Shown here one piece after another: positions 7,041-29,024 of a stretch of DNA of 64,000 bases. Source of the DNA: an archaeon (GTDB taxonomy: Archaea > Hydrothermarchaeota > Hydrothermarchaeia > Hydrothermarchaeales > BMS3B). The position numbers and the translations under genes are program-made. Every line of letters begins with the position of its first letter. The first letter of the stretch is position 1. The DNA is taken from contig JALSIP010000051.1 in assembly GCA_026989875.1 (NCBI GenBank), forward strand, positions 1,161 to 65,160, in the 5' to 3' direction. The notes beneath the pieces were generated by a model. That model ran no database searches. It was not told where the DNA came from and saw only the letters and a program-made list of their open reading frames with translations.

Positions 7041-7534
7041 TTCAGGAGCTGGTGTTTCTGGTGATATCCCTCTTCGTGATAGCGGGCGCCGCAGGGGTGG
7101 TGTTTGCCCAGCGGCTGTTCCATGCGGTTCTCTCCTTGGCGCTCTGCCTGCTCTCGGTGGCTGCAGTTTACATCACCCTGGGTGCTGAATTTCTCGCGGT
7201 GATACAGGTGCTGGTTTATGCTGGTGGAGTGGTGGTGCTGTTCCTCTTTGCGGTCATGCTCACGAGGAGCGACCTGCAGCTCAGGCGGGAGCCCCTGGAG
7301 AGCTTTGCCCCCGTGTCAGCGGTGCTCTTCGGTGTGCTGGTGCTCTTCTACATCGCAAGAACAGGCTTCGTGCCTCAGGGCGAAAGAGCCCTTGCCCCCG
7401 GGGATGTGGCGAGCGTGGGGCAGGTGATATTCTCACCCAAGGCTTATGCTCTGCCCTTTGAGCTTGTGGGCATACTGCTGCTTGCGGCGATGGTCGGAGC
7501 CATATACCTGGCGAGGAGGGATGAGCGGTGGTAA
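7037..7534 (+). CDS. nuoJ: complex I-like subunit J
   Basis: 165 aa hydrophobic protein. Position and size fit NuoJ. Confidence 0.8.
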   Translation: MIQELVFLVISLFVIAGAAGVVFAQRLFHAVLSLALCLLSVAAVYITLGAEFLAVIQVLVYAGGVVVLFLFAVMLTRSDLQLRREPLESFAPVSAVLFGVLVLFYIARTGFVPQGERALAPGDVASVGQVIFSPKAYALPFELVGILLLAAMVGAIYLARRDERW

Positions 7535-13113: not shown

Positions 13114-15448
13114 TCACCCGCACCCTTGACACTCCGTTTTTCTTCTCCACCACAATCAGCACATCCGCCGCCTGCTCAAACTCCCAGTCGTGGGTCACCA
13201 CCACGGTCTGGGGCACTGCTGAAAGCTTCCTCACCACCTCCACCAGCTCCTGCCTGCGCTGCACGTCCAGGTGCACCGTGGGCTCGTCCAGCATTATGAG
13301 CTCCATTGCACCCCCAGCAAGCGCTCTGGCTATGCCCAGCCTCAGCGCCAGGGCTAAGGCAACCCTCTCGCCGCCGCTCAGCATGTCAGTGCTCACCATG
13401 CCCAGAGGTCCGTAAAGGGTGACGCTCAGGTCGTCTGAGAGCATCAGCTCGGTGTAGGGCAGGTTGAACTCCTGAAAAATCTCCCGGGTGTGCTGCTCAA
13501 TCAGCGGCATGGCTGCTTCTCTGAGCTCCCTCTGCAGGCAGTCCCTGCTGAACGCCTGGCGAATCTCAGCCAGCAGCTCTATGAACCTCTCAAGTTTCCT
13601 CCTCTCTTCAGCCTTTGAGCGCAGCTCTCCCAGCCTCTCCTCCACCGCCTTCCTCTCCTCCTTCCTGCTGTTGAGCTCCCCCCTGCACTTCCAGATGCTT
13701 CTCTCCAGCTCCCTCAGGCTCCTCTCCGCCTTCTCGCACCTGCTCACAAGGGCGCTCCTGCTCCTCTCCGGCTCCTCGCCCAGCCTCTCCTTCACAGCTT
13801 CAAGCTCCCTCCTGAGGGCATCAGCCTCCCCGGCTAAGCGTTTCAGCCTGTGCTCAATCTCCCTCTTCCTGCCTCCGTAGCGCCTCAGGTACTCCTGGGC
13901 GCTCACGTACCTGCTGTGCGCCTCCTCAAGAGCCTCAATCTCAGCCTCAAGCTTTCTGCGCTGCTCCATCAGCCTCTCAAGCCCCCCGGTGTCTCTTCTG
14001 AGCCTTTCCGCCTCCTTCTCCATATCTTTCACTCTGGTGCTCAGGCTTTCAATCTCCTCAGTGAGCCTCTGAACCTCCTGCACACGGACGCTCATACCCG
14101 CAAGCCTCTTCTCCCGCCTTCTCAGGTACCTCTCCTCCTCCATGCAGCTCTCAAGCTTTCTCCTCCACCTCTCCTCCATCTCCTCAGCATCTCCAATCTT
14201 CTTCAGGTAGCCCTGCGTGAGCTCCTCACGCTTAGCCTCGTCAATCCTGCTCCAGCACAGGGGGCATCTGCTGCCCGCCTGCTCCAGCTCCCTCAGCCTC
14301 TCTGCCAGCTCCCTCTTCTTGGTGCGAGCCTCTGCCACCCTGCGCTCGCACTCCCCCTTCTCCTGCTCCAGCTCCCTCAGCCTCTCTGCCAGCTCCTCCA
14401 TTTTCCTCTCCGCAGCCTTTCTGAACCCTTCGGCGCTCTCCACCCTCACTCCCAGAGCCTCAGATGCCTCCCTCAGTATCCCCATCACCTCCTCCTGCTT
14501 GCGCAGCACATCACCCCTGTATCTCTTCGCATGCTCTTCAATGCTCACCATGCGCGACCTCTTCTCACCCAGCTCCCTTATTCTCGCATCCAGCTCCTTT
14601 GCCTGCTTCTCAGCCTCACGGAATCTGCGCTCCTCATCCTCAAGCCTCATGAGAGTCTGCTCGTACTCCCTTATTCTTCTCAGCTCCTCCTCAGCTCCTT
14701 TCGTCTCGGCTTCAGCCTTCTCAAGTCTCAGCTTCAGCCTGCAGCCTCTCTCTGCCAGCTCCCTCAGCGACCTCAGGGATTCAAGCTCCTCCTCAGCCTT
14801 CTGCTTCTGAGCCTCAAGCACTCTGAGCCTGTCCTCCATCGCCCTTATCTCCCTCCCCAGCACCTCTGCCTTCTTCTCCGCATTCTCAATCTCTCCGTCC
14901 ACCCACCCCAGCTCAGCCAGCTTAGACTCAAAAGCCCTGATAACCTCCCTCATTCTCTCGTAAGCCTGCTCAATACGCTCTATGCCCAGGAGCTTCGCGA
15001 GCATCCGCTTTCTCACCGCGGGGTCATCTGAAAGCAAGGCGTCAATCTCTCCCTGCTGGATGTAAACAGCGCTCTTGAACAGCTTTGCATTCATCCCCGT
15101 AAGCCTCTCAATCTCCTCCGTCACCCTCCTGTCCTGCTCCAGAATGCCACTGCCCTCGCAGTAAAGCCTGCTCCCGCTCCTCGTCCCCGAGCTTCTCACC
15201 ACCCTGTACCTCCTGCCACCGCACAGGAAGCTCACCGAAACCTCCATGCTCTCCTGTCCCCGTGTTATCAGCTCGGCTATGTTGACGCCCCTCGGCTTGT
15301 CCTTGAAGAGCGCAAAGCTTATCGCCTCCAGCAGCGAGCTCTTGCCCGAGCCGTTCTCTCCAACTATGACGCTTATCCCCTCACCCAGCCTGAGCACGGT
15401 GTCACGGTGGGATTTGAAGTTCCTCAGCCTGAGCTCCTCCACCATCAT
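13067..15448 (-). CDS. rad50: DNA double-strand break repair ATPase Rad50
   Basis: N-terminal Walker A (GENGSGKSS), a long coiled coil with a zinc hook CPLCWSRID, a C-terminal signature motif (LSGGER) and Walker B/D-loop (LIMLDEPTVHLD). The ATGA start overlaps the mre11 stop. Confidence 0.9.
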   Translation of the reverse strand: MMVEELRLRNFKSHRDTVLRLGEGISVIVGENGSGKSSLLEAISFALFKDKPRGVNIAELITRGQESMEVSVSFLCGGRRYRVVRSSGTRSGSRLYCEGSGILEQDRRVTEEIERLTGMNAKLFKSAVYIQQGEIDALLSDDPAVRKRMLAKLLGIERIEQAYERMREVIRAFESKLAELGWVDGEIENAEKKAEVLGREIRAMEDRLRVLEAQKQKAEEELESLRSLRELAERGCRLKLRLEKAEAETKGAEEELRRIREYEQTLMRLEDEERRFREAEKQAKELDARIRELGEKRSRMVSIEEHAKRYRGDVLRKQEEVMGILREASEALGVRVESAEGFRKAAERKMEELAERLRELEQEKGECERRVAEARTKKRELAERLRELEQAGSRCPLCWSRIDEAKREELTQGYLKKIGDAEEMEERWRRKLESCMEEERYLRRREKRLAGMSVRVQEVQRLTEEIESLSTRVKDMEKEAERLRRDTGGLERLMEQRRKLEAEIEALEEAHSRYVSAQEYLRRYGGRKREIEHRLKRLAGEADALRRELEAVKERLGEEPERSRSALVSRCEKAERSLRELERSIWKCRGELNSRKEERKAVEERLGELRSKAEERRKLERFIELLAEIRQAFSRDCLQRELREAAMPLIEQHTREIFQEFNLPYTELMLSDDLSVTLYGPLGMVSTDMLSGGERVALALALRLGIARALAGGAMELIMLDEPTVHLDVQRRQELVEVVRKLSAVPQTVVVTHDWEFEQAADVLIVVEKKNGVSRVRVNAPQAEAGYQGAGSG

Positions 15449-16560
15449 CTCCCACCACCCCACCTTCTGCTGAAGAACTCCTCCGCAACCTTTACCGCAT
15501 CCTCGGTTCTTCCATCCTCTAAGAGCCTCAGGAGCTCGGCGGCAAAGCTTCGCTCTGCCTCGCTGCGCTCCCTGAGGTAGCTGCCGAGAAGCTCGTAAAC
15601 GTCCAGCCCCTTAGCCGGCGACGCTCTCCGCTCTTCCTCCTGACTCAGTCTGCGCACATCCACATAAAGCACTCTGTCTGCAAGCCGCCTCATCACCTCC
15701 GAGTATAGCCTCTGAAAGCTCTCAGTCCTGCACTGCAGCTCAAGCCTCACCACGGGCTTGCCGTCGCCAGGCTCTGGAAGCGCCTCCAGCTCCTCTTCGG
15801 AGCTCACCCTGAGCTTCACAAACCTGCGCACGCTCCTGAGCTTCACCCACTCCACCTCCTCCGGCTCCTTCGCCTCTGTGTCAGCCAGGTAGAATCCCTT
15901 GCCCATCTTCTCGTACACTTCAATTTCGTCGCCTCTCCACACCTCAGTTGAGCCTGGATATGCCACGATTCCGCCGGCATAGCTGTCCAGCAGGGGCTTG
16001 TGCACGTGCCCCAGGGCGTAGTAGCTGAATCCCGCGGGCAGCTCGTTCATCCTGAGCTCGTAACCCACACCCAAGTAGCGGTCTATTCCCTGGTGGAGCA
16101 GGAGCACGCTTCTCCTGTGCCTCTCTGCCAGCTTCTCCAGCTCCGCCAGCCTCTCCAGCAGCACCCTGCTGTGGAGCTTTGAGAAGTAGGGCAGACCCGC
16201 TATCAGCACGTCTCCGTGCACCCTGGCGGGCTTTTTCGGTGTAAGAAACTCCATCTCGGGGTACAGCCTGTGGGGCGGCACAGCTCCGCTTCGCATCAGC
16301 AGGTCGTGGTTGCCGGCGATGCAGTAGAACTTTATGCCCTCTTCCCTCAGCCTCTCCAGCTCCTCCCGCACCACCACCAGCGCCTTGACATGGGGGCGGG
16401 GCTCGTCAAACAGGTCGCCGCTGTGCACCACAAACCTGCACCCCTCGTCTATTATCCTGTCAACTGCCTCGCGGAAACTCCTGTAGAAGTCCTCCTCCCG
16501 CTCGTCCAGGTTGTACTGCCTGTAGCCCAGGTGGGTGTCTGCAATGTGCGCAAACAGCAT
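15445..16560 (-). CDS. mre11: DNA repair nuclease Mre11 (calcineurin-like phosphoesterase)
   Basis: Phosphoesterase motifs I-V (HIADTHLG, HSGDLFD, GNHD, GHVH) and Mre11 length. It is directly upstream of rad50. Confidence 0.9.
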   Translation of the reverse strand: MLFAHIADTHLGYRQYNLDEREEDFYRSFREAVDRIIDEGCRFVVHSGDLFDEPRPHVKALVVVREELERLREEGIKFYCIAGNHDLLMRSGAVPPHRLYPEMEFLTPKKPARVHGDVLIAGLPYFSKLHSRVLLERLAELEKLAERHRRSVLLLHQGIDRYLGVGYELRMNELPAGFSYYALGHVHKPLLDSYAGGIVAYPGSTEVWRGDEIEVYEKMGKGFYLADTEAKEPEEVEWVKLRSVRRFVKLRVSSEEELEALPEPGDGKPVVRLELQCRTESFQRLYSEVMRRLADRVLYVDVRRLSQEEERRASPAKGLDVYELLGSYLRERSEAERSFAAELLRLLEDGRTEDAVKVAEEFFSRRWGGGR

Positions 16561-19210: not shown

Positions 19211-20635
19211 ATGGGCAGGGTTCTCCTCCTCAGCCTTGACGGGGCATGCCGGGAGGCTCTGAGCCTCATGCTTCCCCGCATGCCCGCGCTCAGGAAGCTT
19301 ATTGAGAAGCACGGCTTGCACGGGCTTCGCTCCACCGTGCCCCCCACCACCGCACCAGCGTGGGCAAGCATTCAGACAGGCATGAATCCAGGGAAACACG
19401 GCATAATAGACTTTCTGAGCTACAGCAGGGCAGATGGCAGAACCTCGCTGGTAAACTCCCTTGCGATACGGGGCAGAAGCATGTGGGAGGCAATCACAGC
19501 CTCTGGCATGCGGGTGATTACCGTCAACGTACCCCTGAGCTACCCGCCTGCAAGAGACAGGCGCAGGGTTACCGTCGGCTGCATGCTCTCCCCTAAGGTC
19601 TCGCCTGACATGGTTTATCCTGCGGAGATTTACCCGGTGCTCAGGAGAAACAGCTACACCATCCTCCCCGGCTTCATAGGCAGGGGCATTGCGGTGGGTC
19701 TGGAGAGGTTTGTGGACGAGTGCATACGCGTTGAGGAGAGCAGGTTTGCGGTGGCTGAGGAGCTCATGGAAGCTTACGACTGGGACGTGGCGGCGGTGCA
19801 CAACCAGTGCTTGGATGCGCTGCAGCACTGCTTCTACCACCTGCTGCTCGGCGGCACCGAGGAGGAGCGCGAGGAGCTCGGAAGGTTTTACGCAGCCGCC
19901 GACAGGCTCATTGAGCGGCTGATAAGGCGTGCGGGCAGGGTGAGCATGCTGGCAGTCTTCTCAGACCACGGCTTCACCTTGGCTGAGAGGTACATCAACC
20001 TGAACCTCTGGCTGAAGCGCAGGGGGTACCTGAAGGAGAAGAACTCCGGGCTGGCTTACAGGCTCGCGCTGCTGCTCAGGCGAATGGACGTGCTCAGGCT
20101 GAGAAACCTGCTGCTCAGCAGGCTCTTCAGGAACTCCCTGCCCTTCGTAAAGCTCAGAACAGAGCTCAGCCTCTCAAGAATAGACACGCACAGAAGCAGG
20201 GCGTTCATACCCGTAGGTGCCACCTTCGGCTGCATATACCTGGGCGGGGGCTCTGAGGCAGGGCTGCGCGAGAGGCTGAAGAGGGAGCTTGAGGGCATCA
20301 CAGACCCCGCCAGCGGGAGGAGGGTTATAGCGAGGGTTTACCTGAGGGAGGAGGTTTACCGCGGGGAGCATGCACCCGGGCTTCCCGAGCTGGTTGCAGA
20401 GCCGGCTGAGGGCTACGCCTTCGGTCCGCAGCTTCTGGGGGAGGGCAGGTTTATAAGGGCAGCCAGGCACGGCACCGAGCTCAGCGGCGCCCACGCCATG
20501 CAGGGCGTGCTGGTGATGAACACGAAGCTCATAGCTTCCGAACCCGAGCTCCTGGACATAGCACCCAGCGTGCTGGCGGCTCTCAACCTGCAGGTGCCTG
20601 AGTGGATGGAGGGCAGGGTGCTTCAGGCGCGGTGA
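19211..20635 (+). CDS. alkaline-phosphatase-superfamily type I phosphodiesterase/nucleotide pyrophosphatase family protein
   Basis: N-terminal LLLSLDG...TVPPTTAPAWASIQTGMNPGKHGI is the PF01663-like metal-binding core. Confidence 0.7.
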   Translation: MGRVLLLSLDGACREALSLMLPRMPALRKLIEKHGLHGLRSTVPPTTAPAWASIQTGMNPGKHGIIDFLSYSRADGRTSLVNSLAIRGRSMWEAITASGMRVITVNVPLSYPPARDRRRVTVGCMLSPKVSPDMVYPAEIYPVLRRNSYTILPGFIGRGIAVGLERFVDECIRVEESRFAVAEELMEAYDWDVAAVHNQCLDALQHCFYHLLLGGTEEEREELGRFYAAADRLIERLIRRAGRVSMLAVFSDHGFTLAERYINLNLWLKRRGYLKEKNSGLAYRLALLLRRMDVLRLRNLLLSRLFRNSLPFVKLRTELSLSRIDTHRSRAFIPVGATFGCIYLGGGSEAGLRERLKRELEGITDPASGRRVIARVYLREEVYRGEHAPGLPELVAEPAEGYAFGPQLLGEGRFIRAARHGTELSGAHAMQGVLVMNTKLIASEPELLDIAPSVLAALNLQVPEWMEGRVLQAR

Positions 20636-22230
20636 ACCTCTGTGACCACGCCTATGCCCTTGCTCCTGCCCTCGCGGAAGACAAAGCGCTGCCCCACCTC
20701 CACGTAGTGGGGGTGGTACTTGAATGTCATCCTCACCCTCCCCCTGTCGCCTGCAGCTAAGTACTCCCGCTCTAAGGGCTCAAGCACCACCGCCTCAGAG
20801 ATGGTCTCCAAGTGAACCACGGGCTCGTAGCCGCTTGCTATTCTGGTGGGGTGGTTGAGAACCACGATCTCTGCGGTGAAGGCTCTGGCAGCTTTAAGCT
20901 CTGCAGAGGAGAGCACCATACCCCTTCTGGGCTCCACGGGCGAGCCCTTTATAGCTATTCCCACCACCTCCCCCACCTCCGCGTTCTCAACGCTCAGGTG
21001 GTGCACCTCTATGGAGGTGCTTCTCACCCTGTGGAACTTTCCTTCCCGGTCAGGACCCAGAAACAGGGTCTCCCCGCGCCTTACCGCACCCCGCTTTACG
21101 CTGCCGCTCACCACCATCCCCACGCCCTGAATGCTGTAAATCTTGTCAATGTACATGAGAAAGCTGGCGCTGCGCTCGGGCTGGGATACACGCTTGGGCA
21201 GCATGTAGAGCAGGCGGTCAAGCAGCTCAAGCCCCTCCCCGGTCACCGCAGACACCGCCAGCACCGGCACTAAGGCGCCTGTCTGCCAGAAGCTGCCCAG
21301 CTGCTCCAGGTCTTTCAGAGAGTCTATGAACTTGGGCACCCTGCCGACGACGGCGAGGAGGCGTGCAATCTCCCGCTGCAGCTCCTTCAAGTCCCCAGCC
21401 AGGTCGCACTTGGTTATCACCACTATTACAGGCAGGTCCATGGCAAGCATTATGCCCAGGTGCTCCTTAGTTATGTGGGTTATTCCCTCGTTCCCGGCTA
21501 TGGTGAGGAGCCCGTAGTCAAGCTTCTGCCCCACTATGCCCCTTATGGTGGTTCTCAGCCAGGGCTCGTGCCCGACGGTGTCCACAAAGGACACCACCTT
21601 TGCCGCCTTCCTGACAACCTCCGCCCGCTCCCTCCTGCTGAGGGGGTTTCTCAGCCTCACAGGCTCGCCCGAGCTGGTGAATCCATAGACAGCGTAGCTG
21701 AGCTCGGCGCTGAGCCCGCGCTCTATCTCGTGCTTTCTGGTGTCTAAGTAGCGCCTGGTTTTTCCAGAGCCGTCGTCCGCCTCTCCAGACACGAGGGTGC
21801 CCACCAGAGTGGACTTGCCGTGGTCCACGTGCCCTGCAACGGCTATGAGCAGGTGCTCCTTCTCAAGGCGTGAGCGCTCAAGCACAAGCATGGCACAGTG
21901 CCTGCCGTTTAGAGCATAGTCCTTCCTGCTGGTTATGGCAAAGCCTGCCTCGGCGGCGATTTCTGAGAGCACCTCAACGCTCTCCTCAAGCTCATCACGG
22001 CTGAGCCCCACCACGCTGCCCGAGTCGTCCACCCCGATGAGGTACACCGCCCTGCCGGAGCCGCTGGCTGCACGGTACCTGAGCTGGCAGGCTAAGCTCT
22101 GCTTTCTCTCTCTGCGAAGGTGCACGCTGCGGGAGAGGCGGCGCTTGAACTCAAGGTTGCCCCCCTCACCTCTGCCTGCCAGCCTGAGGAGCTCCTTCAT
22201 CTTCAGAAGCTGCACAGCGTAACATACCAA
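20623..22230 (-). CDS. GTPBP1/EF-Tu-family GTPase with an N-terminal AlbA_2-like (Schlafen-type) domain
   Basis: G1 motif AVAGHVDHGKSTL and G3 DTVGHE, with EF-Tu-like domains 2/3. The N-terminal part carries the GNLEFK...YLIGVDDSGSVVGL AlbA_2 signature. The start may be the internal Met at 22200. Confidence 0.7.
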   Translation of the reverse strand: MVCYAVQLLKMKELLRLAGRGEGGNLEFKRRLSRSVHLRRERKQSLACQLRYRAASGSGRAVYLIGVDDSGSVVGLSRDELEESVEVLSEIAAEAGFAITSRKDYALNGRHCAMLVLERSRLEKEHLLIAVAGHVDHGKSTLVGTLVSGEADDGSGKTRRYLDTRKHEIERGLSAELSYAVYGFTSSGEPVRLRNPLSRRERAEVVRKAAKVVSFVDTVGHEPWLRTTIRGIVGQKLDYGLLTIAGNEGITHITKEHLGIMLAMDLPVIVVITKCDLAGDLKELQREIARLLAVVGRVPKFIDSLKDLEQLGSFWQTGALVPVLAVSAVTGEGLELLDRLLYMLPKRVSQPERSASFLMYIDKIYSIQGVGMVVSGSVKRGAVRRGETLFLGPDREGKFHRVRSTSIEVHHLSVENAEVGEVVGIAIKGSPVEPRRGMVLSSAELKAARAFTAEIVVLNHPTRIASGYEPVVHLETISEAVVLEPLEREYLAAGDRGRVRMTFKYHPHYVEVGQRFVFREGRSKGIGVVTEVHRA

Positions 22231-22287
22231 AAAATTTTAAGTGGTTATTCAGTCAGCACTGGCTGGTTCTGACAGGGAGGCAAGCAA

Positions 22288-22671
22288 GTGGCAAGATGGC
22301 AGGGAAGGTCTGTCAGGAAGGTTACAGGTGGCAGGTACAGGCGTTTCAGAAAGAAGCGCAAGTTTGAGCTTGGCAGGGAGCCTTCTGAAACCAGAGTAGG
22401 GGAGACCAGGCTGAAGGTTATAAGAGCCAGAGGGGGCAACCTGAAGCTGAGGCTGTACAGTGCCAGGTATGCCTGTGTGGCAAACCCGGAGACTGGAGAG
22501 ACGAAGAAGGTTGAGATACTGAAGGTGGTGAAGAACCCCGCAAATCCCCACTACGAGAGGAGGAACATAATAACCAGGGGGGCGGTGATCCTCACGGAGG
22601 CAGGGGAGGCTGTGGTGACCTCACGTCCGGGGCAGGATGGTGTGGTTAACGCTGTGCTCCTGAAGCATTAA
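22288..22671 (+). CDS. rps8e: 30S ribosomal protein S8e
   Basis: [23 protein letters not shown] ... RGGNLKLR is the S8e signature. A TATA-like box, aaaaattttaag, lies at 22236-22247. Confidence 0.9.
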
Positions 22672-22740
22672 ATATATATACTTTGCCAGAGATAGATATG
22701 ATTGCAGAGGGGCAGGCTCTGGCAGGAGGAATAAAGTAAG

Positions 22741-24000
22741 GTGCCTGAAGCGTACCTGTACTTTGAGATGGGAGTTCTGGCATTGCTCTTCCTCCTATCA
22801 GCCTTTTTCTCAGGCTCCGAGACCGCATACCTTTCGGTGAGCAGAGCCAGGATCAGGAAGCTTGCCAGGGAGGGTGACTCAAGGGCGAAGGTGCTGGACA
22901 AACTGCTTGAGATGCCCAACAGGGTTATAATCACCATACTCATCGGCAACAACTTGGTGAACATTCTTGCAGCCTCCATCGCCACCTCCATTGCGATAAA
23001 GGCTTTTGGGAGCACCGGCGTGGGCATAGCCACAGGTGCGGTGACGCTGGTGGTGCTGCTGTTTGGCGAGATTACGCCCAAGAGCTACTCCGCAACGAAC
23101 GCAGAGCGGGTGGCACTGCTGGTGGCTAAGCCCATATACGTGCTCATGAAGCTGCTCACGCCGGTGGTGCTGGTGCTCTCCAGATTTGCAAAGTTCATAG
23201 TCAGCGCCTTCGGCGGCGAGGTGAGGCTCGGTCCATTCATAACCGAAGAAGAGCTCAAGATGCTCGTGGAGGTTGGGGAGGAGCTGGGTGCAATTGAGAA
23301 GGAAGAGAAGGAGATGATATCGGGGATTTTTGATTTTGACAAGATGGATGTTAAGGACATAATGGTTCCGAGGATTGATATGAAGTGCATTGAGGCGAAC
23401 AGCAGCATTGAGGATGCAAAGAAGCTGATACTTGAGACCGGGCACTCCAGGATACCTGTTTACGAGGGGAATGTTGACAACATCATAGGCATACTCTACG
23501 CCAAGGACCTGCTGAAGTTCCTGAATTCGGGAGAGAAGCCCGAGACCCTGCACGGCATCCTGAGACCTGCCCACTTTGTACCTGAGAGCAAGAAGCTGAA
23601 CGAGCTGCTGAACGAGTTCCAGAGGCTGAAGGTGCAGATAGCGATAGTTGTGGATGAGTACGGCGGCACCGCGGGCATGGTCACCTTAGAGGATGTGCTT
23701 GAGGAGATAGTGGGTGAGATAAAGGATGAGTACGACGTGGCTGAGGGGGAGGAGTTCACGATGATAGATGAGAACCAGGCGGTGGTGGATGCCAGGGTGA
23801 GCATTCACGAGGTTAACGAGAAGCTCATGCTTTCGCTGCCCGAGGACAGGGTTGACACCATAGGCGGGCTGCTCTTCAACCTGCTGGGCAGGATACCTGT
23901 GCAGGGGGAGGAGGTGGAGGTGGATGGGGTTGTTCTGAGGGTGGAGAGCATGAGGGGGAGAAGGATTATGAAGGTGAGGGTGATAAAGAAGGAGGCATGA
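22741..24000 (+). CDS. CorC/HlyC-family transporter (DUF21 membrane domain + 2 CBS + CorC_HlyC)
   Basis: Four N-terminal TM segments with GSETAY, a CBS pair, and a C-terminal transporter-associated domain. Confidence 0.8.
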   Translation: MPEAYLYFEMGVLALLFLLSAFFSGSETAYLSVSRARIRKLAREGDSRAKVLDKLLEMPNRVIITILIGNNLVNILAASIATSIAIKAFGSTGVGIATGAVTLVVLLFGEITPKSYSATNAERVALLVAKPIYVLMKLLTPVVLVLSRFAKFIVSAFGGEVRLGPFITEEELKMLVEVGEELGAIEKEEKEMISGIFDFDKMDVKDIMVPRIDMKCIEANSSIEDAKKLILETGHSRIPVYEGNVDNIIGILYAKDLLKFLNSGEKPETLHGILRPAHFVPESKKLNELLNEFQRLKVQIAIVVDEYGGTAGMVTLEDVLEEIVGEIKDEYDVAEGEEFTMIDENQAVVDARVSIHEVNEKLMLSLPEDRVDTIGGLLFNLLGRIPVQGEEVEVDGVVLRVESMRGRRIMKVRVIKKEA

Positions 24001-24932
24001 GGTTGCGCGTGCTCTTGGCGCTGCTTGCAGCCCTCGCCCTGCTCCCCCAGGTTAGCGCTGCCCCCGCGGACGTGGTGCTGGTGAGGAGCGACATCCCCCA
24101 CGAGTTTGCAATAGCGCTGGCTTACTCGCAGAGCACAGGCATACCCGTGGTTGCCACACCCCCTGAGAGGCTGAGCAGGGATGCTGAGGAGATGCTGGCC
24201 GGGTACATTGAGATGGGCTACAGGAGGCTGGTGATAATAGGCGGCGAGGAGGCGGTGAGCAGGGAGGTGCAGCGTCAGGTGGATGCCATGGGCTACATAA
24301 CCCGGAGGATCGGAGAGGCTGACCGCTACGGCACCGCCGCCACCTTCGCCAGGGAGTTCTATTCCTCGCCGGGGGGTGCGGTGCTGGTGTCAGGTGAAGG
24401 CTCATCAAGCCTGCTGACCGCGGTGAGGTTGAGCTCGGCTACAGGCTACCCCATACTGTACGTGAGACGCTCCGGTGTGCCGCCGGCGGTGCTGGAGGCG
24501 CTGAAAAGTCTGAAGGTCAGGAGGGTGCTGGTGATTGAGGGCGACCTGACAGAGGAGGCTCTGAAGCAGCTTGCGGGATACGAGCTCAGGGTGGTGAGAA
24601 GGGGTGAGGAGGTGGGTGGAGGGGACGCAACCAAGGCTTCCAGGCTGCTCGCCGCCTTTGTGCTGGGCGCGGCTTCGGCTGCGCTTGCCATGAGGCTGAG
24701 GAGGCGCAGGCAGAGGCTGCCCGCCGAGATTTTAAGCGAGGACGAGCTTGCTGTGGTGAGGGCGATGATGGAGAAGGGCGGCAGGATTACCCAGGACGTG
24801 CTTCCCGAGATCACGGGGTTCTCAAGACCCAAGGTGAGCAGAATCGTCAAGGAGCTGGTGGAGAGGGGAATAATTGAGAAGGTTCCCAGGGGAAGAACCC
24901 ACGAGCTGGCTCTGAGAAGGCAGTTTGATTAG
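23997..24932 (+). CDS. membrane-anchored putative transcription regulator: signal peptide + extracellular CWB2-like repeats + TM + cytoplasmic winged HTH
   Basis: Signal peptide MRLRVLLALLAALALLPQVSAA. Two cell-wall-binding-2-like repeats (VVLV..D...EFAIALAYS...GIPVV; GEADRYGTAATFA). TM segment LLAAFVLGAASAALAM followed by RLRRRRQR. C-terminal MarR/Lrp-like wHTH (ITQDVLPEITGFSRPKVSRIVKELVERGII). ATGA overlap with the corC-like gene. Confidence 0.6.
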   Translation: MRLRVLLALLAALALLPQVSAAPADVVLVRSDIPHEFAIALAYSQSTGIPVVATPPERLSRDAEEMLAGYIEMGYRRLVIIGGEEAVSREVQRQVDAMGYITRRIGEADRYGTAATFAREFYSSPGGAVLVSGEGSSSLLTAVRLSSATGYPILYVRRSGVPPAVLEALKSLKVRRVLVIEGDLTEEALKQLAGYELRVVRRGEEVGGGDATKASRLLAAFVLGAASAALAMRLRRRRQRLPAEILSEDELAVVRAMMEKGGRITQDVLPEITGFSRPKVSRIVKELVERGIIEKVPRGRTHELALRRQFD

Positions 24933-24934
24933 AG

Positions 24935-25387
24935 CTACCTGCTCACAGCGCCGGGAGCGGGTCTGGGGCTGAAGGCTACGGGTGGCACCGGCGGTGGAAG
25001 CCTCGCCTTCTCTGCAGCCACGCTTATGGCAGGCAGTATGCCTAAGGAGATGGTGTTCTCCACCGCAACCCGGACGTCAAGGGGGAGGCTGTTGTAGCCC
25101 TGAGCACTCCACACGTCGTATATCTGGTGGATGCCCTCTGAGCTGTCGCCGGTGATGTAAACCACGATGCTGCACTCTATTGCCCCGATTTCTGTCCTTC
25201 TCACACCCTCCTCCTCAAAGTAGCCTATGGATATCCTGTGCCTGCTGCGGATTGAGCTGGCGCTGTAGAGCTCGGGCTGCTGGCAGGAGTGGTTGATGTC
25301 TATTCTGATGTTGCGTACAGGCTTGAGGTCGGGTATCTCGTAGCCCGTGCTCACCTCAAGCTTCCTGAGCTGTATCTCAACGCGCAT
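24935..25387 (-). CDS. hypothetical protein (150 aa)
   Basis: Genome-typical codon usage in an otherwise empty interval. It shares a palindromic TATA box with the divergent ABC gene. No recognisable domain. Confidence 0.4.
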   Translation of the reverse strand: MRVEIQLRKLEVSTGYEIPDLKPVRNIRIDINHSCQQPELYSASSIRSRHRISIGYFEEEGVRRTEIGAIECSIVVYITGDSSEGIHQIYDVWSAQGYNSLPLDVRVAVENTISLGILPAISVAAEKARLPPPVPPVAFSPRPAPGAVSR

Positions 25388-25412
25388 CGCTCTATGGTGA
25401 GGTCTGCCAAAG

Positions 25413-25425
25413 TATTATAAAAAGG
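25413..25425. promoter_or_regulatory. shared TATA element of a divergent promoter
   Basis: tattataaaaagg lies 19-31 nt upstream of the ABC ATPase GTG (25444) and 26-38 nt upstream of the minus-strand ORF start (25387). Confidence 0.35.
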
Positions 25426-25443
25426 TTAGCCAGAAGTAGTGGT

Positions 25444-26346
25444 GTGCGGGCAGAGGCGGTGGTGGTAAGCGGGGTGAGGAAGAGCTTTGCAGGAAGGGAG
25501 GTGCTGCGTGGAATGAGCTTCAGCGTTGGCAGGGGTGAGGTTTTCGGAATACTGGGACCCAACGGCGCAGGAAAGACAACGCTGATACGCATTATTGCGG
25601 GTCTCCTGAAGCCTGATGCCGGAGAGGTCAGGCTGAACCTGCCACGCCGGGAGGCGGTGGGCTACCTGCCCGAGGAAAGGGGGGTTTACAGGAGAGCCAG
25701 AGTTGCCGACTTCCTCAGGTACCTGGGAGAGCTCAGGGGGATGGATGCGAAGGAGGCGGAGAGGCGGGCTCTGCACCTGCTTGAGAGGATGGGCATGCTC
25801 AGCCACGCCCGCAGGAGGCTGGAGGAGCTTTCCAAGGGTATGGTGCAGAAGGTGCAGATGGCAGGGGTGCTCATTCACAGCCCGGAGGTGCTGCTGCTGG
25901 ATGAGCCCTTCTCGGGGCTTGACCCGGTTAACACCAGAGAGATGGAGAGGCTGATAGAGGAGCAGAGGGATGCTGGAGCTGCCGTGATTCTCTCCACCCA
26001 CATGATTGAGCGTGCCGAGAGGCTCTGTGAGCGTATCGTGATGATACACAGGGGGATGGCGGTGCTGCAGGGCATGCCTGAGGAGATATGCAGGGCGCAT
26101 TACGGGGGGAGGATAAGGCTGGAGGTGCACGGAGAGCTGCCGGAGATAGAGGGGGCAAGGGTGGTGGGGAGAAGGGGCGGAGAGGTGGTGCTGGAGGTGG
26201 AGGGAGGCACCGCCCCCGCGGATGTGCTGAGGCAGCTCATGAGTGCGGGTGCAGAGCTCAGGAGGTTTGAGGCTGGTGCGGGCTCGCTGAGAGAGGTTTT
26301 TGTCAGAATGGTGGAGGAGAATGAGGGGCGCGCTGGTGGTTGCTAA
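25444..26346 (+). CDS. ABC transporter ATP-binding protein
   Basis: Walker A GPNGAGKTT, signature LSKGMVQK, Walker B LLLDEPFSGLD. Confidence 0.9.
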   Translation: MRAEAVVVSGVRKSFAGREVLRGMSFSVGRGEVFGILGPNGAGKTTLIRIIAGLLKPDAGEVRLNLPRREAVGYLPEERGVYRRARVADFLRYLGELRGMDAKEAERRALHLLERMGMLSHARRRLEELSKGMVQKVQMAGVLIHSPEVLLLDEPFSGLDPVNTREMERLIEEQRDAGAAVILSTHMIERAERLCERIVMIHRGMAVLQGMPEEICRAHYGGRIRLEVHGELPEIEGARVVGRRGGEVVLEVEGGTAPADVLRQLMSAGAELRRFEAGAGSLREVFVRMVEENEGRAGGC

Positions 26347-27517
26347 GTGGGAGTTCTGGTGCACTGTGAGGAGGAAGGAGTACATCCTCGCCACGGTGCT
26401 GACACCCATATTCGCACTCCTCGTGTTTTCGCTGCCATCACTGCTGGTGGAGCACGGAGGTGGCGTGTACACGGTGGGGTATGTGGACCGCACCGGAATG
26501 TTTGAGCTCCCCGGGAGCGCCAGCTCTGGCATGGCAGGCAGGAGCGGCGAGAGCTACGTGTTTGTGAGGTACAGCAGCGAGCAGGAGGCTGAGCGTGAGC
26601 TGCTGGCGGGTGAGCTCAGCATGTACATGGTGATTCCCGAGGACTACATGGAAACCGGGAGGGTTGAGGTGTACACCACCAGGACACTGCCGCTGCTGCC
26701 TGTGGATGTGATTTCACAGAGCCTGGTGAGGCAGATGCTTGAGGGCAGGGTGGAGGATGAACGGCTGGTGGAGAGGGCGAGCAAGCCGGTGGAGCTGAGG
26801 GTGTACAGGCTGGATGAGAGGGGGGAGAGCAGAATGAATCTCGCCTCCTACATGGCTCCGGTAGCCACGGGGATGCTGCTGATGTTGGCGCTGGTTATCT
26901 CTTCTGGCTTCCTGGTGCACAGCATGAATGAGGAGAGGGAGAGCAGAATGCTGGAGGTGCTGCTGTCTTCAGCTTCTGCAGAGCAGGTGGTGGCAGGGAA
27001 GCTGCTGGGACTTGGCAGCGCGGGGCTGCTGCAGATGCTCGCATGGCTGGGCATGCTCTTACCTGTAGCAATAGTGCTTGCGGCTGAGGTTGAGCCTCAG
27101 ATGCTGCTGCTCGTGCTGGGATACTTCCTGCTGGGTTTCCTGCTGTACGCCTCAATAATGCTGGGCGTGGGCGCGGTGTGCTCCTCGCCAAGGGAGGCAC
27201 AGCAGCTCATGGGCGTGCTGGTGCTCAGCGCGGTGCTGCCCTTAGCCTTCGGGTTTATAATCTTCCAGAACACAGAAAGCACAGCCGCCAGAGCGGTGTC
27301 ACTTTTCCCGCTCACAGCACCCGTGAGCATGGTGTACCGCAGCTCCATGGGAGGCGTGCCCCCGGGTGAGCTGGTGCTCAGTGCGGTGCTGCTCCTCGCC
27401 TCCGCAGCGCTCACGCTGAAGCTCTCGGCAAGGCTGCTTATGGCGGGAATGCTGATGCGGGGCAAGGGCATGACAGAGGTGCTGAAGAGCCTGCTGACTC
27501 CGAAAGATTTATATTAA
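26300..27517 (+). CDS. ABC-2 family transporter permease
   Basis: 405 aa with an N-terminal TM, a large extracytoplasmic loop and five C-terminal TM segments. ABC-2/NatB-like topology. It is downstream of the ATPase. The start may be 26324. Confidence 0.75.
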   Translation: MSEWWRRMRGALVVAKWEFWCTVRRKEYILATVLTPIFALLVFSLPSLLVEHGGGVYTVGYVDRTGMFELPGSASSGMAGRSGESYVFVRYSSEQEAERELLAGELSMYMVIPEDYMETGRVEVYTTRTLPLLPVDVISQSLVRQMLEGRVEDERLVERASKPVELRVYRLDERGESRMNLASYMAPVATGMLLMLALVISSGFLVHSMNEERESRMLEVLLSSASAEQVVAGKLLGLGSAGLLQMLAWLGMLLPVAIVLAAEVEPQMLLLVLGYFLLGFLLYASIMLGVGAVCSSPREAQQLMGVLVLSAVLPLAFGFIIFQNTESTAARAVSLFPLTAPVSMVYRSSMGGVPPGELVLSAVLLLASAALTLKLSARLLMAGMLMRGKGMTEVLKSLLTPKDLY

Positions 27518-27542
27518 TGATAAATCATGATAAATCCTGACG

Positions 27543-29024
27543 GTGGTTCTGATGAAGCTTCCGCAGGCATTGCTCAGGTGCAGTGTTGAGCCTCTCATAG
27601 AGGAGAGCAACCTGGTGAGAGAGGCTAAGCAGGTTAAGTCGCTGGCTTACGTGGCGCTGCCGTGTCAGATGCAGGCTGTGAGAAAGGCGCAGCTCATGCT
27701 GCACAGAACACGCCAGGAGTGGCCCAGAAAGGTTAAGCTGGTAATCGGGCTGTTCTGCGCGGAGAGCTTCCCCTATGAGGAGCTGGTGAAGGTTGTGGAG
27801 AGCAAGGGGCTCAGCATGGACAGGATACGAAAGTGGGACATAAAGGGCAAGCTTCTGGGGTATCATGAGGAGGGCGTGCTCAAGATATCCCTGAAGGAGG
27901 CGAAGAAGTTTGCCAGAAGCAACTGCAGGTACTGCACCGACTACACCGCGGAGCTTGCTGACGTGAGCATAGGCGCGGTGGGCTCTGCTAAGGGCTGGAA
28001 CACGGTGATTGTGAGAACCCTGAGGGGGCTGAAGGCTGTCAGGGGCGCCATTGAGGCAGGTTATCTGGAGGTCAGGGAGCCTGACCTGGAGGGCGAGCGC
28101 GGGATACCGCTGCTGCGCAAGCTTGCCAAGCGCAAGCTCAGCACGGCAAAGAAGAACAGGGGCAAGGCTGAGGAGAAGGGCATGCGTGTCATGCACTTAG
28201 AGACCATGCACGAGAGAGACCTGAAGAAGCTTGAGGAGATGACAACAAAGGAGCACCGCATTGATGAGCTCCTCAGGGATGTGGTTGAGCCGGGGCTGTG
28301 CGTTACCTGCGGCGTCTGCGAGGCGGTTTGTGCGGAGAGCATCATAAAGATAGGTGAGGATGGCATGCCCCGCAAGCTCAGGGACTGCGAGTCCACGGAC
28401 TGCGGCAGGTGCTATGCCCTGTGCCCGAGGACCACGCTGCCCGCAGATGCGATTGAGGAGGAGCTCTTCGGAATCAGGAGGGTCAGCTACGAGGCAAGGG
28501 TGCTGGGGCAGTTCATAGAGATTCTGTCCTGCAGGGCTGGCAGGGAGGCTATCAGGAAGGTGGGGCAGGACGGCGGCGCTACAACGGCGCTGCTCGCATA
28601 CCTGCTGGATACCGGAGAGGTAGATGCAGCGGTGAGCGTCACTCAGGGGGAGAAGCCCTGGTATCCGGTGAGCTTTATCTCAACCACCAGCGGAGATGTG
28701 CTGAGATGCGCGGGCACAATTTACAGCACCGCCCCCACCATAGTGGCTGTGAAGCGTGCCCTGAGCCAGCACGAGGACTTCAGGAGGTACCTGAACTTCC
28801 TGCGTGAGAGGGGGCTGCTGCCGGAGCTGGAGCTGGTGGAGAGGCTGGCGAAGCCGCCGCTGGCTGCAGAGACGGCGCAGGTGGATGAGGAGGAGCTGAT
28901 GGCAAGAAGAAGAAAGGTTGAGGCGGCGATTGAGAGGCTGGCAAAGCCGGCGGTGAAGATGATGGTTGAGCAGGGCAAGGCTGAGAGGGCGGTTGAGCTG
29001 GTGGTGAAGGAGGGCGATGCATGA
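27543..29024 (+). CDS. F420-binding FrhB/FpoF-family oxidoreductase with circularly permuted domain order (FrhB_C - 2x[4Fe-4S] - FrhB_N)
   Basis: aa 35-170 carry the FrhB C-domain motifs (ALPCQMQAVRK...GLFC...C.YC.DYTAELADVSIGAVGS...TVIVRT). The middle region has CVTCGVCEAVC and C....CGRCYALCP. aa 330-400 carry the FrhB N-domain motif GQDGGATTALLAYLLDTGEVDAAV. The gene has its own TATA at 27508-27515. Confidence 0.7.
   Translation: MVLMKLPQALLRCSVEPLIEESNLVREAKQVKSLAYVALPCQMQAVRKAQLMLHRTRQEWPRKVKLVIGLFCAESFPYEELVKVVESKGLSMDRIRKWDIKGKLLGYHEEGVLKISLKEAKKFARSNCRYCTDYTAELADVSIGAVGSAKGWNTVIVRTLRGLKAVRGAIEAGYLEVREPDLEGERGIPLLRKLAKRKLSTAKKNRGKAEEKGMRVMHLETMHERDLKKLEEMTTKEHRIDELLRDVVEPGLCVTCGVCEAVCAESIIKIGEDGMPRKLRDCESTDCGRCYALCPRTTLPADAIEEELFGIRRVSYEARVLGQFIEILSCRAGREAIRKVGQDGGATTALLAYLLDTGEVDAAVSVTQGEKPWYPVSFISTTSGDVLRCAGTIYSTAPTIVAVKRALSQHEDFRRYLNFLRERGLLPELELVERLAKPPLAAETAQVDEEELMARRRKVEAAIERLAKPAVKMMVEQGKAERAVELVVKEGDA

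What the first reader, a model, noticed from the sequence alone, without database searches (positions are those of the whole stretch)
23997..24932. One-component membrane-anchored regulator: extracellular CWB2-like domain, single TM, cytoplasmic winged HTH, co-transcribed with a CorC/HlyC transporter
Topology follows the positive-inside rule (RLRRRRQR after the TM). It places two cell-wall-binding-2-like repeats outside and a MarR/Lrp-like HTH inside. An N-out, HTH-C-in arrangement differs from the better-known bacterial ToxR/CadC type (cytoplasmic N-terminal HTH). The 4-nt overlap with the CBS-containing CorC-like gene suggests a coupled sensing and efflux unit.
Basis: partly seen in the sequence, partly recalled or inferred. 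Interest (0 to 1): 0.5.

Follow-up and report, generated by a model that had tools for sequence, protein, structure and literature searches.

The report
Archaeal membrane-anchored regulator with cell-wall-binding sensor
The gene encodes a real but uncharacterised archaeal membrane-tethered DNA-binding protein with a cell-wall-binding-type domain on the outside; in relatives it sits next to surface-sugar synthesis genes rather than the CorC transporter, so it probably monitors the cell envelope.

Summary
Window 23997-24932(+) encodes a 311-aa protein with a Sec-type signal peptide, two CWB2 repeats (PF04122, above Pfam's cutoff), one TM helix followed by RLRRRRQR, and a C-terminal winged HTH (PF24034/DUF7343, MarR_2). 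Its ATG overlaps the stop codon of a CNNM/CBS/CorC_HlyC gene (ATGA).

The "sensing plus efflux unit" reading is not supported. The CorC pairing occurs only in the window and its two closest relatives (at least 80% identity). The family spans about 55 clusters at 50% identity across Hydrothermarchaeota, Undinarchaeota-like DPANN, Methanofastidiosa, Theionarchaea, Korarchaeota and Nitrososphaerota.

The commonest conserved partner lies immediately downstream. It is a nucleotide-sugar dehydrogenase in 15 non-redundant groups, or a DUF354/MraY-like/GT2 glycosyltransferase cluster in 4.

In those loci a conserved DNA array lies between the regulator gene and its downstream neighbour. It has tandem GAAAnnGTT units plus a TGAAAC-N-GTTTCA palindrome abutting a BRE/TATA. 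This array is absent from the window.

Best reading: a type-I transmembrane transcription regulator that senses an envelope glycopolymer and controls glycan-synthesis genes. DNA binding, the ligand and the window copy's targets are inferred, not shown. It is an uncharacterised variant of a known kind. A 2023 census counted 9 transmembrane regulators with CW_binding_2 but did not discuss them.

The parts
22668..22680 (+). TATA-like element TTAAATATATATA at the end of the rpS8e gene. It is a candidate promoter for the CNNM/CorC-regulator pair. A GGAGG at 22725-22729 lies 11 nt before the GTG.
   Evidence: Read from the sequence. Inference only; there is no transcript data.
22741..24000 (+). CNNM/CorC-family gene (DUF21/CNNM TM domain, CBS pair, CorC_HlyC), 419 aa. 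Its stop codon overlaps the regulator's start codon.
   Evidence: Pfam: CNNM 4e-59, CBS 5e-19, CorC_HlyC 1e-22. NCBIfam hits to GldE/CorC/PaeA models are all below their equivalog cutoffs.
23997..24932 (+). The regulator gene, 311 aa. Domain order: signal peptide, 2x CWB2, TM, winged HTH (DUF7343).
23997..24059 (+). Sec-type signal peptide, residues 1-21 (n-region MRLR, h-region, VSA|AP).
   Evidence: Hydropathy. An N-terminal hydrophobic segment is present in most family members. Cleavage is inferred.
24072..24296 (+). CWB2-like repeat 1, residues 26-100. It lacks the leading R-x-x-G-x-D-R-Y helix of a canonical repeat.
   Evidence: Pfam 2 stretches, AF2 secondary structure, alignment to Cwp6 repeats.
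24297..24596 (+). CWB2 repeat 2, residues 101-200, with the canonical RRIGEADRYGTA signature.
   Evidence: Best Pfam stretch 104-182. Invariant R104, R110, Y111, G112 and T113 in A1. HMM alignment to Cwp6.
24636..24698 (+). Transmembrane helix, residues 214-234. It is rich in Ala/Gly/Ser and poorly conserved in sequence.
   Evidence: KD hydropathy 1.6-1.7, AF2 helix 210-236, Ka/Ks 0.34-0.63 for linker+TM.
24693..24716 (+). Basic cluster RLRRRRQR, residues 233-240, on the cytoplasmic side of the TM.
   Evidence: Most family members have at least 3 K/R within 12 residues after the TM.
24735..24908 (+). Winged helix-turn-helix, residues 247-304. The recognition helix carries FSRPKVSRIVKEL and the wing carries KVPRGRTHE.
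   Evidence: PF24034 at 2.5e-13, plus MarR_2 and HTH_24. Invariant F275-S-R-P-K279 and R282. Foldseek hits to ArsR/MarR structures.

Best explanation
The gene encodes a single-pass, type-I transmembrane transcription regulator from an uncharacterised archaeal family. After Sec export and probable signal-peptide cleavage, a two-repeat CWB2 module faces the cell envelope. One TM helix spans the membrane, and a roughly 70-residue winged HTH (DUF7343) stays at the inner face.

Shown here: the domain composition, conservation of the whole architecture across several archaeal phyla, and purifying selection on both end domains. Also shown: sequence and structural homology of the ectodomain to the clostridial CWB2 anchor, which binds the anionic wall polymer PSII.

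Shown for relatives: the gene directly precedes a nucleotide-sugar dehydrogenase (closest to archaeal UDP-ManNAc dehydrogenase) or a DUF354/MraY-like/GT2 glycosyltransferase cluster. A conserved array lies in between. It consists of tandem GAAAnnGTT units in 10-nt register, then a TGAAAC-N-GTTTCA palindrome abutting a BRE/TATA promoter.

Inferred: the ectodomain binds an envelope glycopolymer or glycan. The occupancy signal crosses the membrane, by oligomerisation or by proteolytic release. The wHTH then binds the array to tune synthesis of acidic-sugar precursors for the envelope.

In the window's lineage the gene has moved behind a CNNM/CorC gene and is probably co-transcribed with it. The array and the sugar gene are not in the 64-kb window, so this copy's targets are presumably elsewhere in the genome.
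For: Architecture. Structural and sequence homology to Cwp6/SlpA/Cwp8 and to ArsR/MarR wHTH.

Family conservation. There are 14 close homologues with all segments aligned. About 55 full-length clusters at 50% identity keep the SP, TM, basic patch and FS[RK]PK helix. Forty-one genome loci come from Hydrothermarchaeota, Undinarchaeota/Naiadarchaeum, Methanofastidiosa, Theionarchaea, Korarchaeota and Nitrososphaerota.

Neighbourhood. The downstream same-strand gene is a nucleotide-sugar dehydrogenase in 15 non-redundant groups. It scores TIGR03026 432 bits against 189.8, and its best named model is the archaeal UDP-ManNAc dehydrogenase. Four or five DPANN-type loci have GT4 - regulator - DUF354 - MraY-like - GT2.

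Cis-element. There are conserved blocks M1 and M2 in alignment A2, and they occur in both the dehydrogenase-type and the DUF354-type loci. Tandem and palindrome matches are 18 times denser in the 240 nt after the regulator's stop than in the rest of the loci, 3.4 against 0.18 per kb. M1-to-palindrome spacing is 71-73 nt in 7 loci. The M2 pattern has only 4 exact matches in 241 million metagenome records. All 4 lie directly upstream of a dehydrogenase homologue. Three have a regulator homologue upstream; the fourth is at a contig end.

CWB2 as an envelope module in the same phylum. A 1,756-aa NosD/beta-helix/Ig surface protein in Hydrothermarchaeum profundi ends in the same two-repeat CWB2 module and lies divergent to the regulator homologue.

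Selection: Ka/Ks 0.065-0.095 for the ectodomain and 0.10-0.19 for the wHTH.

Literature. Transmembrane transcription regulators average about 4 per archaeal genome, and 9 of 50,302 carry CW_binding_2 (PMC10269533). CWB2 anchors proteins to PSII (PMC8881574).
Against: There is no direct evidence of DNA binding. Nothing shows that this protein, rather than another factor, binds the M1/M2 array.

The array and the sugar dehydrogenase are absent from the window. The window copy's target is therefore unknown.

In Korarchaeota, Thermoproteota and Methanofastidiosa loci the downstream genes are housekeeping (a Zn-ribbon ORF and aEF-1beta) and carry no array. The sugar link is therefore not universal.

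Canonical CWB2 works as three repeats forming a pseudo-threefold prism. This protein has two, so ligand binding may differ or may need oligomerisation.

No envelope polymer is known for these uncultured archaea. Topology was inferred without a dedicated predictor.

All 41 genome loci were retrieved with a pattern that includes the recognition helix. Its invariance among those loci is therefore partly by construction.
Confidence: 0.55

Rival explanations
1. The regulator and the CNNM/CorC transporter form a dedicated unit in which the CWB2 domain senses an external cue, for example divalent cations bound to the envelope. The wHTH then controls the corC operon, coupling sensing to Mg/Co efflux.
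For: The 4-nt ATGA overlap suggests co-transcription and is kept in L005 and L006. A TATA-like element lies upstream of corC. Both genes are intact and conserved in the three genomes.
Against: The pairing is restricted to one shallow clade, 3 of 37 non-redundant family members. No CorC homologue lies within up to about 6 kb in any other locus where the contig extends that far. Other lineages have Memo-like or GT4 genes upstream at similarly short distances. No M1/M2-like array occurs near the corC promoter.
Confidence: 0.1
2. The architecture is as described, but the active form is released. Binding or loss of ligand at the CWB2 domain triggers site-1 cleavage and then intramembrane cleavage within the Ala/Gly/Ser-rich TM helix. 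This frees the wHTH to act as a soluble factor, in the manner of SREBP or RsgI. It is a mechanistic sub-variant of the best explanation.
For: The TM segment is rich in small, helix-destabilising residues (LLAAFVLGAASAALAM). G224 is the only invariant TM residue in A1. The juxtamembrane linker is variable and has low pLDDT.
Against: No protease gene is consistently linked to the family. Relaxed selection on the TM (Ka/Ks 0.34-0.63) argues against a sequence-specific cleavage site. Known archaeal membrane-bound regulators such as ArnR act from the membrane (PMC6396743).
Confidence: 0.15
3. The protein is not a transcription factor. It is a structural tether in which the CWB2 module holds an envelope polymer or S-layer component to the membrane. 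The wHTH then serves protein-protein contacts or non-specific nucleoid attachment.
For: In bacteria CWB2 is an anchoring module, not a sensor. The same two-repeat module ends a giant surface protein in L013. The wHTH lacks the dimerisation helices of full-length MarR proteins.
Against: The recognition helix and wing are among the most conserved parts of the protein. A conserved palindrome and direct-repeat array lies next to the gene in two different gene contexts. Such an array is expected for a sequence-specific DNA binder.
Confidence: 0.12
4. The topology is different from that proposed. The N-terminal segment is not a signal peptide or the central segment is not a TM, and the whole protein is a cytoplasmic MarR-like regulator with a ligand-binding alpha/beta domain.
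For: No dedicated predictor was run. The TM hydropathy is moderate (1.6-1.7). Foldseek also gives weak hits to periplasmic-binding-protein folds.
Against: Two hydrophobic segments at the same positions recur across about 55 divergent clusters, with basic residues after the second one. The N-terminus has a classical n-h-c layout with VSA|A. All CWB2 proteins with solved structures are extracellular.
Confidence: 0.03

Closest known systems
Transmembrane transcription regulators (TTRs) as defined by Demey et al. 2023 (PMC10269533); ToxR, CadC and TcpP are the classic cases
   Same: One polypeptide carries a DNA-binding domain and a TM segment, presumably acting at the membrane. It is single-pass, like 56% of TTRs. 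Archaeal genomes average about 4 TTRs, and 9 catalogued TTRs carry CW_binding_2.
   Different: ToxR and CadC have an N-terminal OmpR-type wHTH inside and a C-terminal periplasmic sensor (established knowledge). Here the order is reversed: signal peptide, sensor, TM, then a C-terminal MarR/DUF7343-type wHTH. The CW_binding_2 class was only counted in a supplementary table and never analysed.
ArnR/ArnR1 of Sulfolobus acidocaldarius, the characterised archaeal membrane-bound regulators (PMC6396743)
   Same: These are archaeal one-component regulators tethered to the membrane that bind promoters of cell-surface structure genes.
   Different: ArnR has an N-terminal HTH, HAMP-like and sensor domains in the cytoplasm, and two C-terminal TM helices. 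It has no extracytoplasmic domain and no signal peptide.
CWB2 cell-wall-binding module of Clostridioides difficile Cwp proteins and SlpA (PF04122; PDB 5j72, 5j6q, 7acy)
   Same: There is significant sequence homology (E 7.5e-16) and structural homology (Foldseek E 4e-8, about 190-210 aligned columns). The R-x-x-G-x-D-R-Y-x-T signature is shared.
   Different: The bacterial module has three repeats forming an intertwined triangular prism that binds PSII. Here there are two repeats, one lacking its first helix. They sit in an archaeon with no known wall polymer and are fused through a TM to a DNA-binding domain.
MarR/TrmB/Lrs14-type archaeal winged-helix regulators
   Same: The wHTH core matches MarR_2, HTH_24, TrmB, IclR and Lrs14 models over about 50 residues.
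   Different: Only the roughly 60-residue wHTH is present. The flanking dimerisation helices of MarR and the sugar-binding domain of TrmB are absent. The best match is the separate family DUF7343.
Eukaryote-type Ser/Thr kinases with extracellular wall-binding repeats (PASTA kinases; also the kinase-TM-3xCWB2 protein P0171 seen here)
   Same: A wall-polymer-binding repeat module sits outside, coupled through one TM to a cytoplasmic signalling domain (for P0171; PASTA kinases from general knowledge).
   Different: The output is a DNA-binding domain rather than a kinase, and the topology is type I rather than type II.

Membership tests
Transmembrane transcription regulator (TTR, operational definition of PMC10269533) | Predicted DNA-binding domain | tested here: met
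   PF24034 scores 50.1 bits (cutoff 27.6), MarR_2 33.3 (27) and HTH_24 25.3 (21.9). Foldseek hits ArsR/MarR structures.
Transmembrane transcription regulator (TTR, operational definition of PMC10269533) | At least one transmembrane region | tested here: met
   Hydropathy segment 214-234 followed by RLRRRRQR. AF2 helix 210-236. Conserved in the family. No dedicated TM predictor was available.
Transmembrane transcription regulator (TTR, operational definition of PMC10269533) | Regulates transcription while membrane-bound | not testable with these tools
   This needs EMSA/ChIP and fractionation. The only support is an adjacent conserved operator-like array in relatives.
CWB2 cell-wall-binding module (PF04122) | Significant match to the CW_binding_2 profile and fold | tested here: met
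   38.6 bits against cutoff 24.9. Cwp6 at E 7.5e-16. Foldseek Cwp6/SlpA/Cwp8 at probability 1.00.
CWB2 cell-wall-binding module (PF04122) | Three tandem repeats forming a pseudo-threefold prism | tested here: not met
   Only two repeats fit in the 185-residue ectodomain. The canonical arrangement is described in PMC8881574. A rare family variant, P0021, does appear to have three.
CWB2 cell-wall-binding module (PF04122) | Binds an anionic secondary wall polymer (PSII in C. difficile) | not testable with these tools
   No ligand is known in these archaea. Indirect support: linkage to nucleotide-sugar dehydrogenase and glycosyltransferase genes.
ToxR/CadC-type regulators | N-terminal cytoplasmic OmpR-type wHTH, TM, C-terminal periplasmic sensor | tested here: not met
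   The domain order is reversed and there is no Trans_reg_C hit.
ArnR/ArnR1 | N-terminal HTH, HAMP/sensor in the cytoplasm, two C-terminal TM helices | tested here: not met
   The architecture differs (compared with PMC6396743).
DUF7343 (PF24034) | Match above Pfam's gathering score | tested here: met
   50.1 bits against 27.6, profile positions 2-59 of 62. All close homologues carry PF24034.
MarR family proper (PF01047) | Full MarR fold with N- and C-terminal dimerisation helices around the wHTH | tested here: not met
   PF01047 scores 16.3 bits, below its cutoff of 24.6. Only about 70 cytoplasmic residues are available.
   A CorC homologue is adjacent only in the window, L005 and L006. It is absent from the other 34 non-redundant loci.

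The most novel reading that the evidence does not exclude
This family is an archaeal envelope-homeostasis circuit carried in a single polypeptide. A two-repeat CWB2 ectodomain reads out the amount or state of an as yet undescribed acidic envelope glycopolymer. This would be the same polymer that anchors CWB2-tailed surface proteins in Hydrothermarchaeota. The membrane-tethered wHTH binds a phased array (direct repeats, a 72-nt spacer, then a palindrome at the BRE) to set transcription of the UDP-sugar dehydrogenase or glycosyltransferase genes that make the polymer. If true, CWB2-mediated wall-polymer anchoring, so far a Firmicutes feature, also operates in several uncultured archaeal phyla.
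Probability: 0.3. Interest if true: 0.65.

Novelty: new variant of a known kind. Interest (0 to 1): 0.45.

Why it matters
Almost nothing is known about how archaea monitor their cell envelope. The only characterised archaeal membrane-bound regulators (ArnR/ArnR1) sense from the cytoplasmic side.

This family would be a sensor with a recognisable extracytoplasmic ligand-binding module and a candidate operator. Its likely target genes are nucleotide-sugar dehydrogenases and glycosyltransferases. That makes envelope-to-gene signalling in archaea directly testable.

It also points to CWB2-dependent anchoring of surface proteins, and hence an unknown envelope polymer, in Hydrothermarchaeota and other uncultured lineages.

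For the window itself the practical lesson is narrower. The CorC adjacency is a recent rearrangement and should not be used to assign function.

Tried and rejected
(1) Exact-sequence look-ups of the window protein and of P0001 found no contig.

(2) A word-indexed homologue search with the 72-aa wHTH alone returned one protein and was uninformative. The profile search with A3 added little beyond database names.

(3) Searches of the window for the M1 and M2 motifs found nothing above chance. M1 gave one 3-mismatch hit at 56206, with 0.18 expected and 16 of 100 shuffles reaching at least one. The window copy therefore cannot be tied to a target.

(4) tblastn of all conserved neighbour families from related loci against the window found no homologue. 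These families were the dehydrogenase, MfnD/E/F-like, DUF354, the GTs and aEF-1beta.

(5) Literature searches for DUF7343 (0 papers) and COG2512 (2 irrelevant papers) gave nothing. The archaeal 'dark matter' paper does not mention the family.

(6) The AFDB Foldseek library was unavailable.

(7) Rfam found no RNA family in 20000-29000.

(8) I considered that M1/M2 are merely generic BRE/TATA promoters. The BRE/TATA part of M2 is generic. The abutting palindrome, the 10-nt-phased repeats and the fixed 71-73-nt spacing are not. In addition, the full M2 pattern occurs only at regulator-dehydrogenase junctions.

(9) Invariance of the recognition helix among genome loci was discounted, because the retrieval pattern included it.
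Full report
1. What is in the window.

The ORF at 23997-24932(+) is real and has the coordinates given. It encodes 311 residues.

- Residues 1-21 form an n-h-c signal-peptide-like segment ending VSA|AP.
- Residues 214-234 form the only other hydrophobic stretch. It is followed by R233-LRRRRQ-R240.
- CW_binding_2 (PF04122) scores E 1.6e-9 in two stretches, above Pfam's gathering score.
- DUF7343 (PF24034) scores E 2.5e-13 over residues 247-304. MarR_2 and HTH_24 also pass their cutoffs.
- NCBIfam gives only sub-threshold wHTH hits (Csa3, Lrs14, Sta1, ArsR).

An AlphaFold2 model built on 14 homologues has mean pLDDT 82. It shows two beta/alpha repeats (26-105 and 110-200), a long helix at 210-236 and a winged helix. 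Foldseek matches the ectodomain to C. difficile Cwp6, SlpA-HMW and Cwp8 (E 4e-8 to 3e-4, 189-211 aligned columns). It matches the C-terminus to ArsR/MarR regulators. A profile search of PDB sequences hits Cwp6 at E 7.5e-16.

The upstream gene 22741-24000 carries CNNM + CBS + CorC_HlyC domains. Its TGA overlaps the regulator's ATG. No Rfam family lies in 20000-29000. The caveat is that topology rests on hydropathy and the positive-inside rule, because no dedicated predictor was available.

2. The family.

The window belongs to an archaeon of, or close to, Candidatus Hydrothermarchaeota. A word-indexed search found 14 full-length homologues at 46-100% identity. Their alignment keeps every segment. 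The ectodomain and wHTH are highly conserved, while the juxtamembrane linker and TM are variable.

An exhaustive profile search of 1.84 billion representatives found about 55 full-length clusters of 290-360 aa. Thousands of bacterial multi-repeat CWB2 proteins followed. The full-length clusters keep the following features:
- an N-terminal hydrophobic segment;
- a TM at about residues 200-265;
- basic residues after the TM;
- an FS[RK]PK recognition helix.

A scan of one genome per species returned 41 loci. They come from Hydrothermarchaeota, Undinarchaeota/Naiadarchaeum and other DPANN, Methanofastidiosa, Theionarchaea, Korarchaeota (Methanodesulfokora) and Nitrososphaerota. All are MAGs or enrichments.

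Database names are generic: 'DUF7343 domain-containing protein', 'MarR family transcriptional regulator', 'putative cell wall-binding protein' and 'uncharacterized membrane protein'.

Ka/Ks against the two closest relatives is 0.13-0.19 overall. It is 0.065-0.095 in the ectodomain, 0.10-0.19 in the wHTH and 0.34-0.63 in the linker and TM.

3. The CorC link does not hold up.

tblastn of the window's CorC protein against all loci finds it next to the regulator only in L005 (86% identity) and L006 (80%). Both share the whole local synteny of the window. After collapsing to 36 non-redundant loci, no other locus has a CorC homologue within up to about 6 kb where the contig extends that far.

The upstream neighbour varies. 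It is a Memo-like gene at 8 nt in one clade, a GT4 glycosyltransferase at 14-39 nt in another, and CorC here. Co-transcription with corC in the window is likely, because the ATGA/GTGA overlap is kept in all three genomes. A dedicated sensing-efflux unit is not supported.

4. What is conserved instead.

The gene immediately downstream on the same strand is a nucleotide-sugar dehydrogenase in 15 non-redundant groups. It passes TIGR03026 at 432 bits. Its best-scoring named model is the archaeal UDP-N-acetyl-D-mannosamine dehydrogenase, below that model's equivalog cutoff. It is often followed by MfnD/F/E-like genes.

In four or five DPANN-type loci the order is GT4 glycosyltransferase - regulator - DUF354 - MraY/WecA-like transferase - GT2 polyprenyl-phosphate sugar synthase.

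In Korarchaeota, Thermoproteota and Methanofastidiosa the downstream genes are a small Zn-ribbon ORF and aEF-1beta, which carry no functional hint.

None of these neighbour families has a homologue in the 64-kb window.

5. A conserved cis-element follows the gene.

The intergenic DNA after the regulator's stop codon has two conserved blocks.
- M1 is about ATGGAAAnGTTwGAAAAGGTT. It consists of two to four GAAAnnGTT units in 10-nt register.
- M2 is TGAAAyCGTTTCAyCGGAAAGCTTAAAATA. It is a 13-bp palindrome abutting a BRE/TATA that faces the downstream gene.

The spacer is not conserved in sequence. It does keep M1 and the palindrome 71-73 nt apart in seven loci. In two DPANN loci the blocks are contiguous.

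The array occurs in front of both the dehydrogenase and the DUF354 cluster. It therefore travels with the regulator, not with one target. Tandem or palindrome matches are 18 times denser in the 240 nt after the regulator than elsewhere in the loci.

The exact M2 pattern has four matches in 241 million metagenome records. All four lie directly upstream of a dehydrogenase homologue. Three have a regulator homologue upstream; the fourth is cut by a contig end.

The window has no such array. That the regulator binds the array is an inference from linkage only.

6. CWB2 as an envelope module in these archaea.

In Hydrothermarchaeum profundi (L013) the regulator homologue lies divergent to a 1,756-aa secreted protein. 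That protein has NosD/beta-helix and Ig-like domains. It ends in the same two-repeat CWB2 arrangement, without a TM. The two-repeat module therefore probably attaches surface proteins to something in the envelope of this phylum. The regulator's ectodomain would bind the same component.

In C. difficile, three CWB2 repeats form an intertwined prism that binds the anionic polymer PSII (PMC8881574). The archaeal module has two repeats, so that defining feature of the bacterial module is not met. A rare family variant (P0021, 448 aa) appears to have three repeats. A bacterial-looking protein (P0171) couples a Ser/Thr kinase through one TM to three CWB2 repeats. This shows that CWB2 can also sit in a sensor-type architecture.

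7. Mechanism proposed.

Shown:
- the architecture and its conservation;
- homology of both end domains;
- purifying selection;
- linkage to sugar and glycan genes in two of the three main neighbourhood types;
- the adjacent conserved DNA array.

Inferred:
- The ectodomain binds an envelope glycopolymer or glycan.
- Occupancy changes the oligomeric state of the membrane-tethered wHTH, or leads to its release.
- The wHTH binds the palindrome at the BRE and the phased repeats, and so controls transcription of the nucleotide-sugar dehydrogenase or glycosyltransferase genes.

For the window copy, the gene has been relocated behind corC and its targets must lie outside the window. I give the overall reading a confidence of 0.55. 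The rivals are a CorC-coupled unit (0.10), proteolytic release as the mode of signalling (0.15, a sub-variant), a non-regulatory tether (0.12) and a wrong topology (0.03).

8. Comparison with what is known.

By the operational definition of Demey et al. 2023, this is a transmembrane transcription regulator. That census found about 4 per archaeal genome. It listed CW_binding_2 in 9 of 50,302 such proteins, in a supplementary table and without discussion (PMC10269533).

It is not a ToxR/CadC-type protein, because the order and the wHTH class are reversed. It is not ArnR-like either: ArnR has an N-terminal HTH, cytoplasmic sensing and two C-terminal TMs (PMC6396743). It is not a full MarR, since PF01047 is below its cutoff and there are no dimerisation helices. 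No paper mentions DUF7343.

I therefore class it as a new variant of a known kind. The architecture is catalogued but uncharacterised. Its genomic context and candidate operator are, as far as the searches made here could tell, undescribed.

9. Verdict.

The finding is real and moderately interesting (0.45). The functional part, the CorC coupling, should be replaced by an envelope-glycan hypothesis. That hypothesis is supported for the family but not demonstrable for this particular copy.

Noticed in passing
L001 7037-7140; L010 6938-7040; L021 1835-1935; L023 6968-7010; L042 6995-7100 (alignment A2): A conserved DNA array lies directly after the regulator gene in relatives. It has tandem GAAAnnGTT units in 10-nt register (M1), then a TGAAAC-N-GTTTCA palindrome abutting a BRE/TATA (M2). 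M1 and the palindrome are a constant 71-73 nt apart despite an unconserved spacer. The array is absent from the window.
   Followed up: yes
L013 585-5855 (-): This ORF encodes a 1,756-aa secreted protein of Hydrothermarchaeum profundi with NosD/beta-helix and Ig-like domains. It ends in the same two-repeat CWB2 module, has no TM, and lies divergent to the regulator homologue. It looks like a CWB2-anchored archaeal surface protein.
   Followed up: partly
protein P0171 (627 aa) and fragment P0170: This protein has a Ser/Thr protein kinase domain, one TM and three extracellular CWB2 repeats. It is a PASTA-kinase-like layout that uses CWB2 instead. Its composition looks bacterial; the organism is unknown.
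   Followed up: no
protein P0021 (448 aa): A variant of the regulator family with a longer ectodomain that appears to hold three CWB2 repeats, before the TM and wHTH.
   Followed up: no
window 24935-25387 (-): A 150-aa ORF convergent with the regulator; the two stop codons are only 2 nt apart. It is conserved at 83-90% in L005 and L006, with no Pfam or NCBIfam hit and a Pro-rich C-terminus. Function unknown.
   Followed up: partly
window 25444-27517 (+): An ABC-2 type transporter pair: a DrrA-like ATPase and an ABC2_membrane_3 permease, with ORFs overlapping by 47 nt. It starts 57 nt from the divergent 150-aa ORF. Syntenic in L006.
   Followed up: no
L035-L041, about 10-200 nt after the regulator stop; also L026 and L034: In Korarchaeota, Thermoproteota and Methanofastidiosa loci the regulator is followed by a small four-Cys Zn-ribbon ORF (about 55-60 aa, missed by the 80-aa ORF cutoff) and then aEF-1beta. 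A FEN1-like gene lies nearby.
   Followed up: no
L028 about 4440-4560; L031 about 7080-7190; L032 about 7070-7180: A conserved non-coding block downstream of the regulator in Theionarchaea and Thermococci-like loci. A promoter-like GGGCCTTTAAAAAGCCCAAAGYTTATATAG is followed by GCATTTGTGTCCGGAATGCGATCTTTCACCCCCC. This may be a small RNA gene.
   Followed up: no
window 14001-16000: A strong local GC skew of -0.40, against about +/-0.2 elsewhere in the window. Not examined.
   Followed up: no
window 20623-22230 (-): An EF-Tu-like GTPase (GTP_EFTU plus domains 2 and 3) with an N-terminal extension of about 120 residues. It is divergent from rpS8e (22288-22671), conserved in L005 and L006, and 45% identical in a Methanofastidiosum locus (L034).
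   Followed up: no
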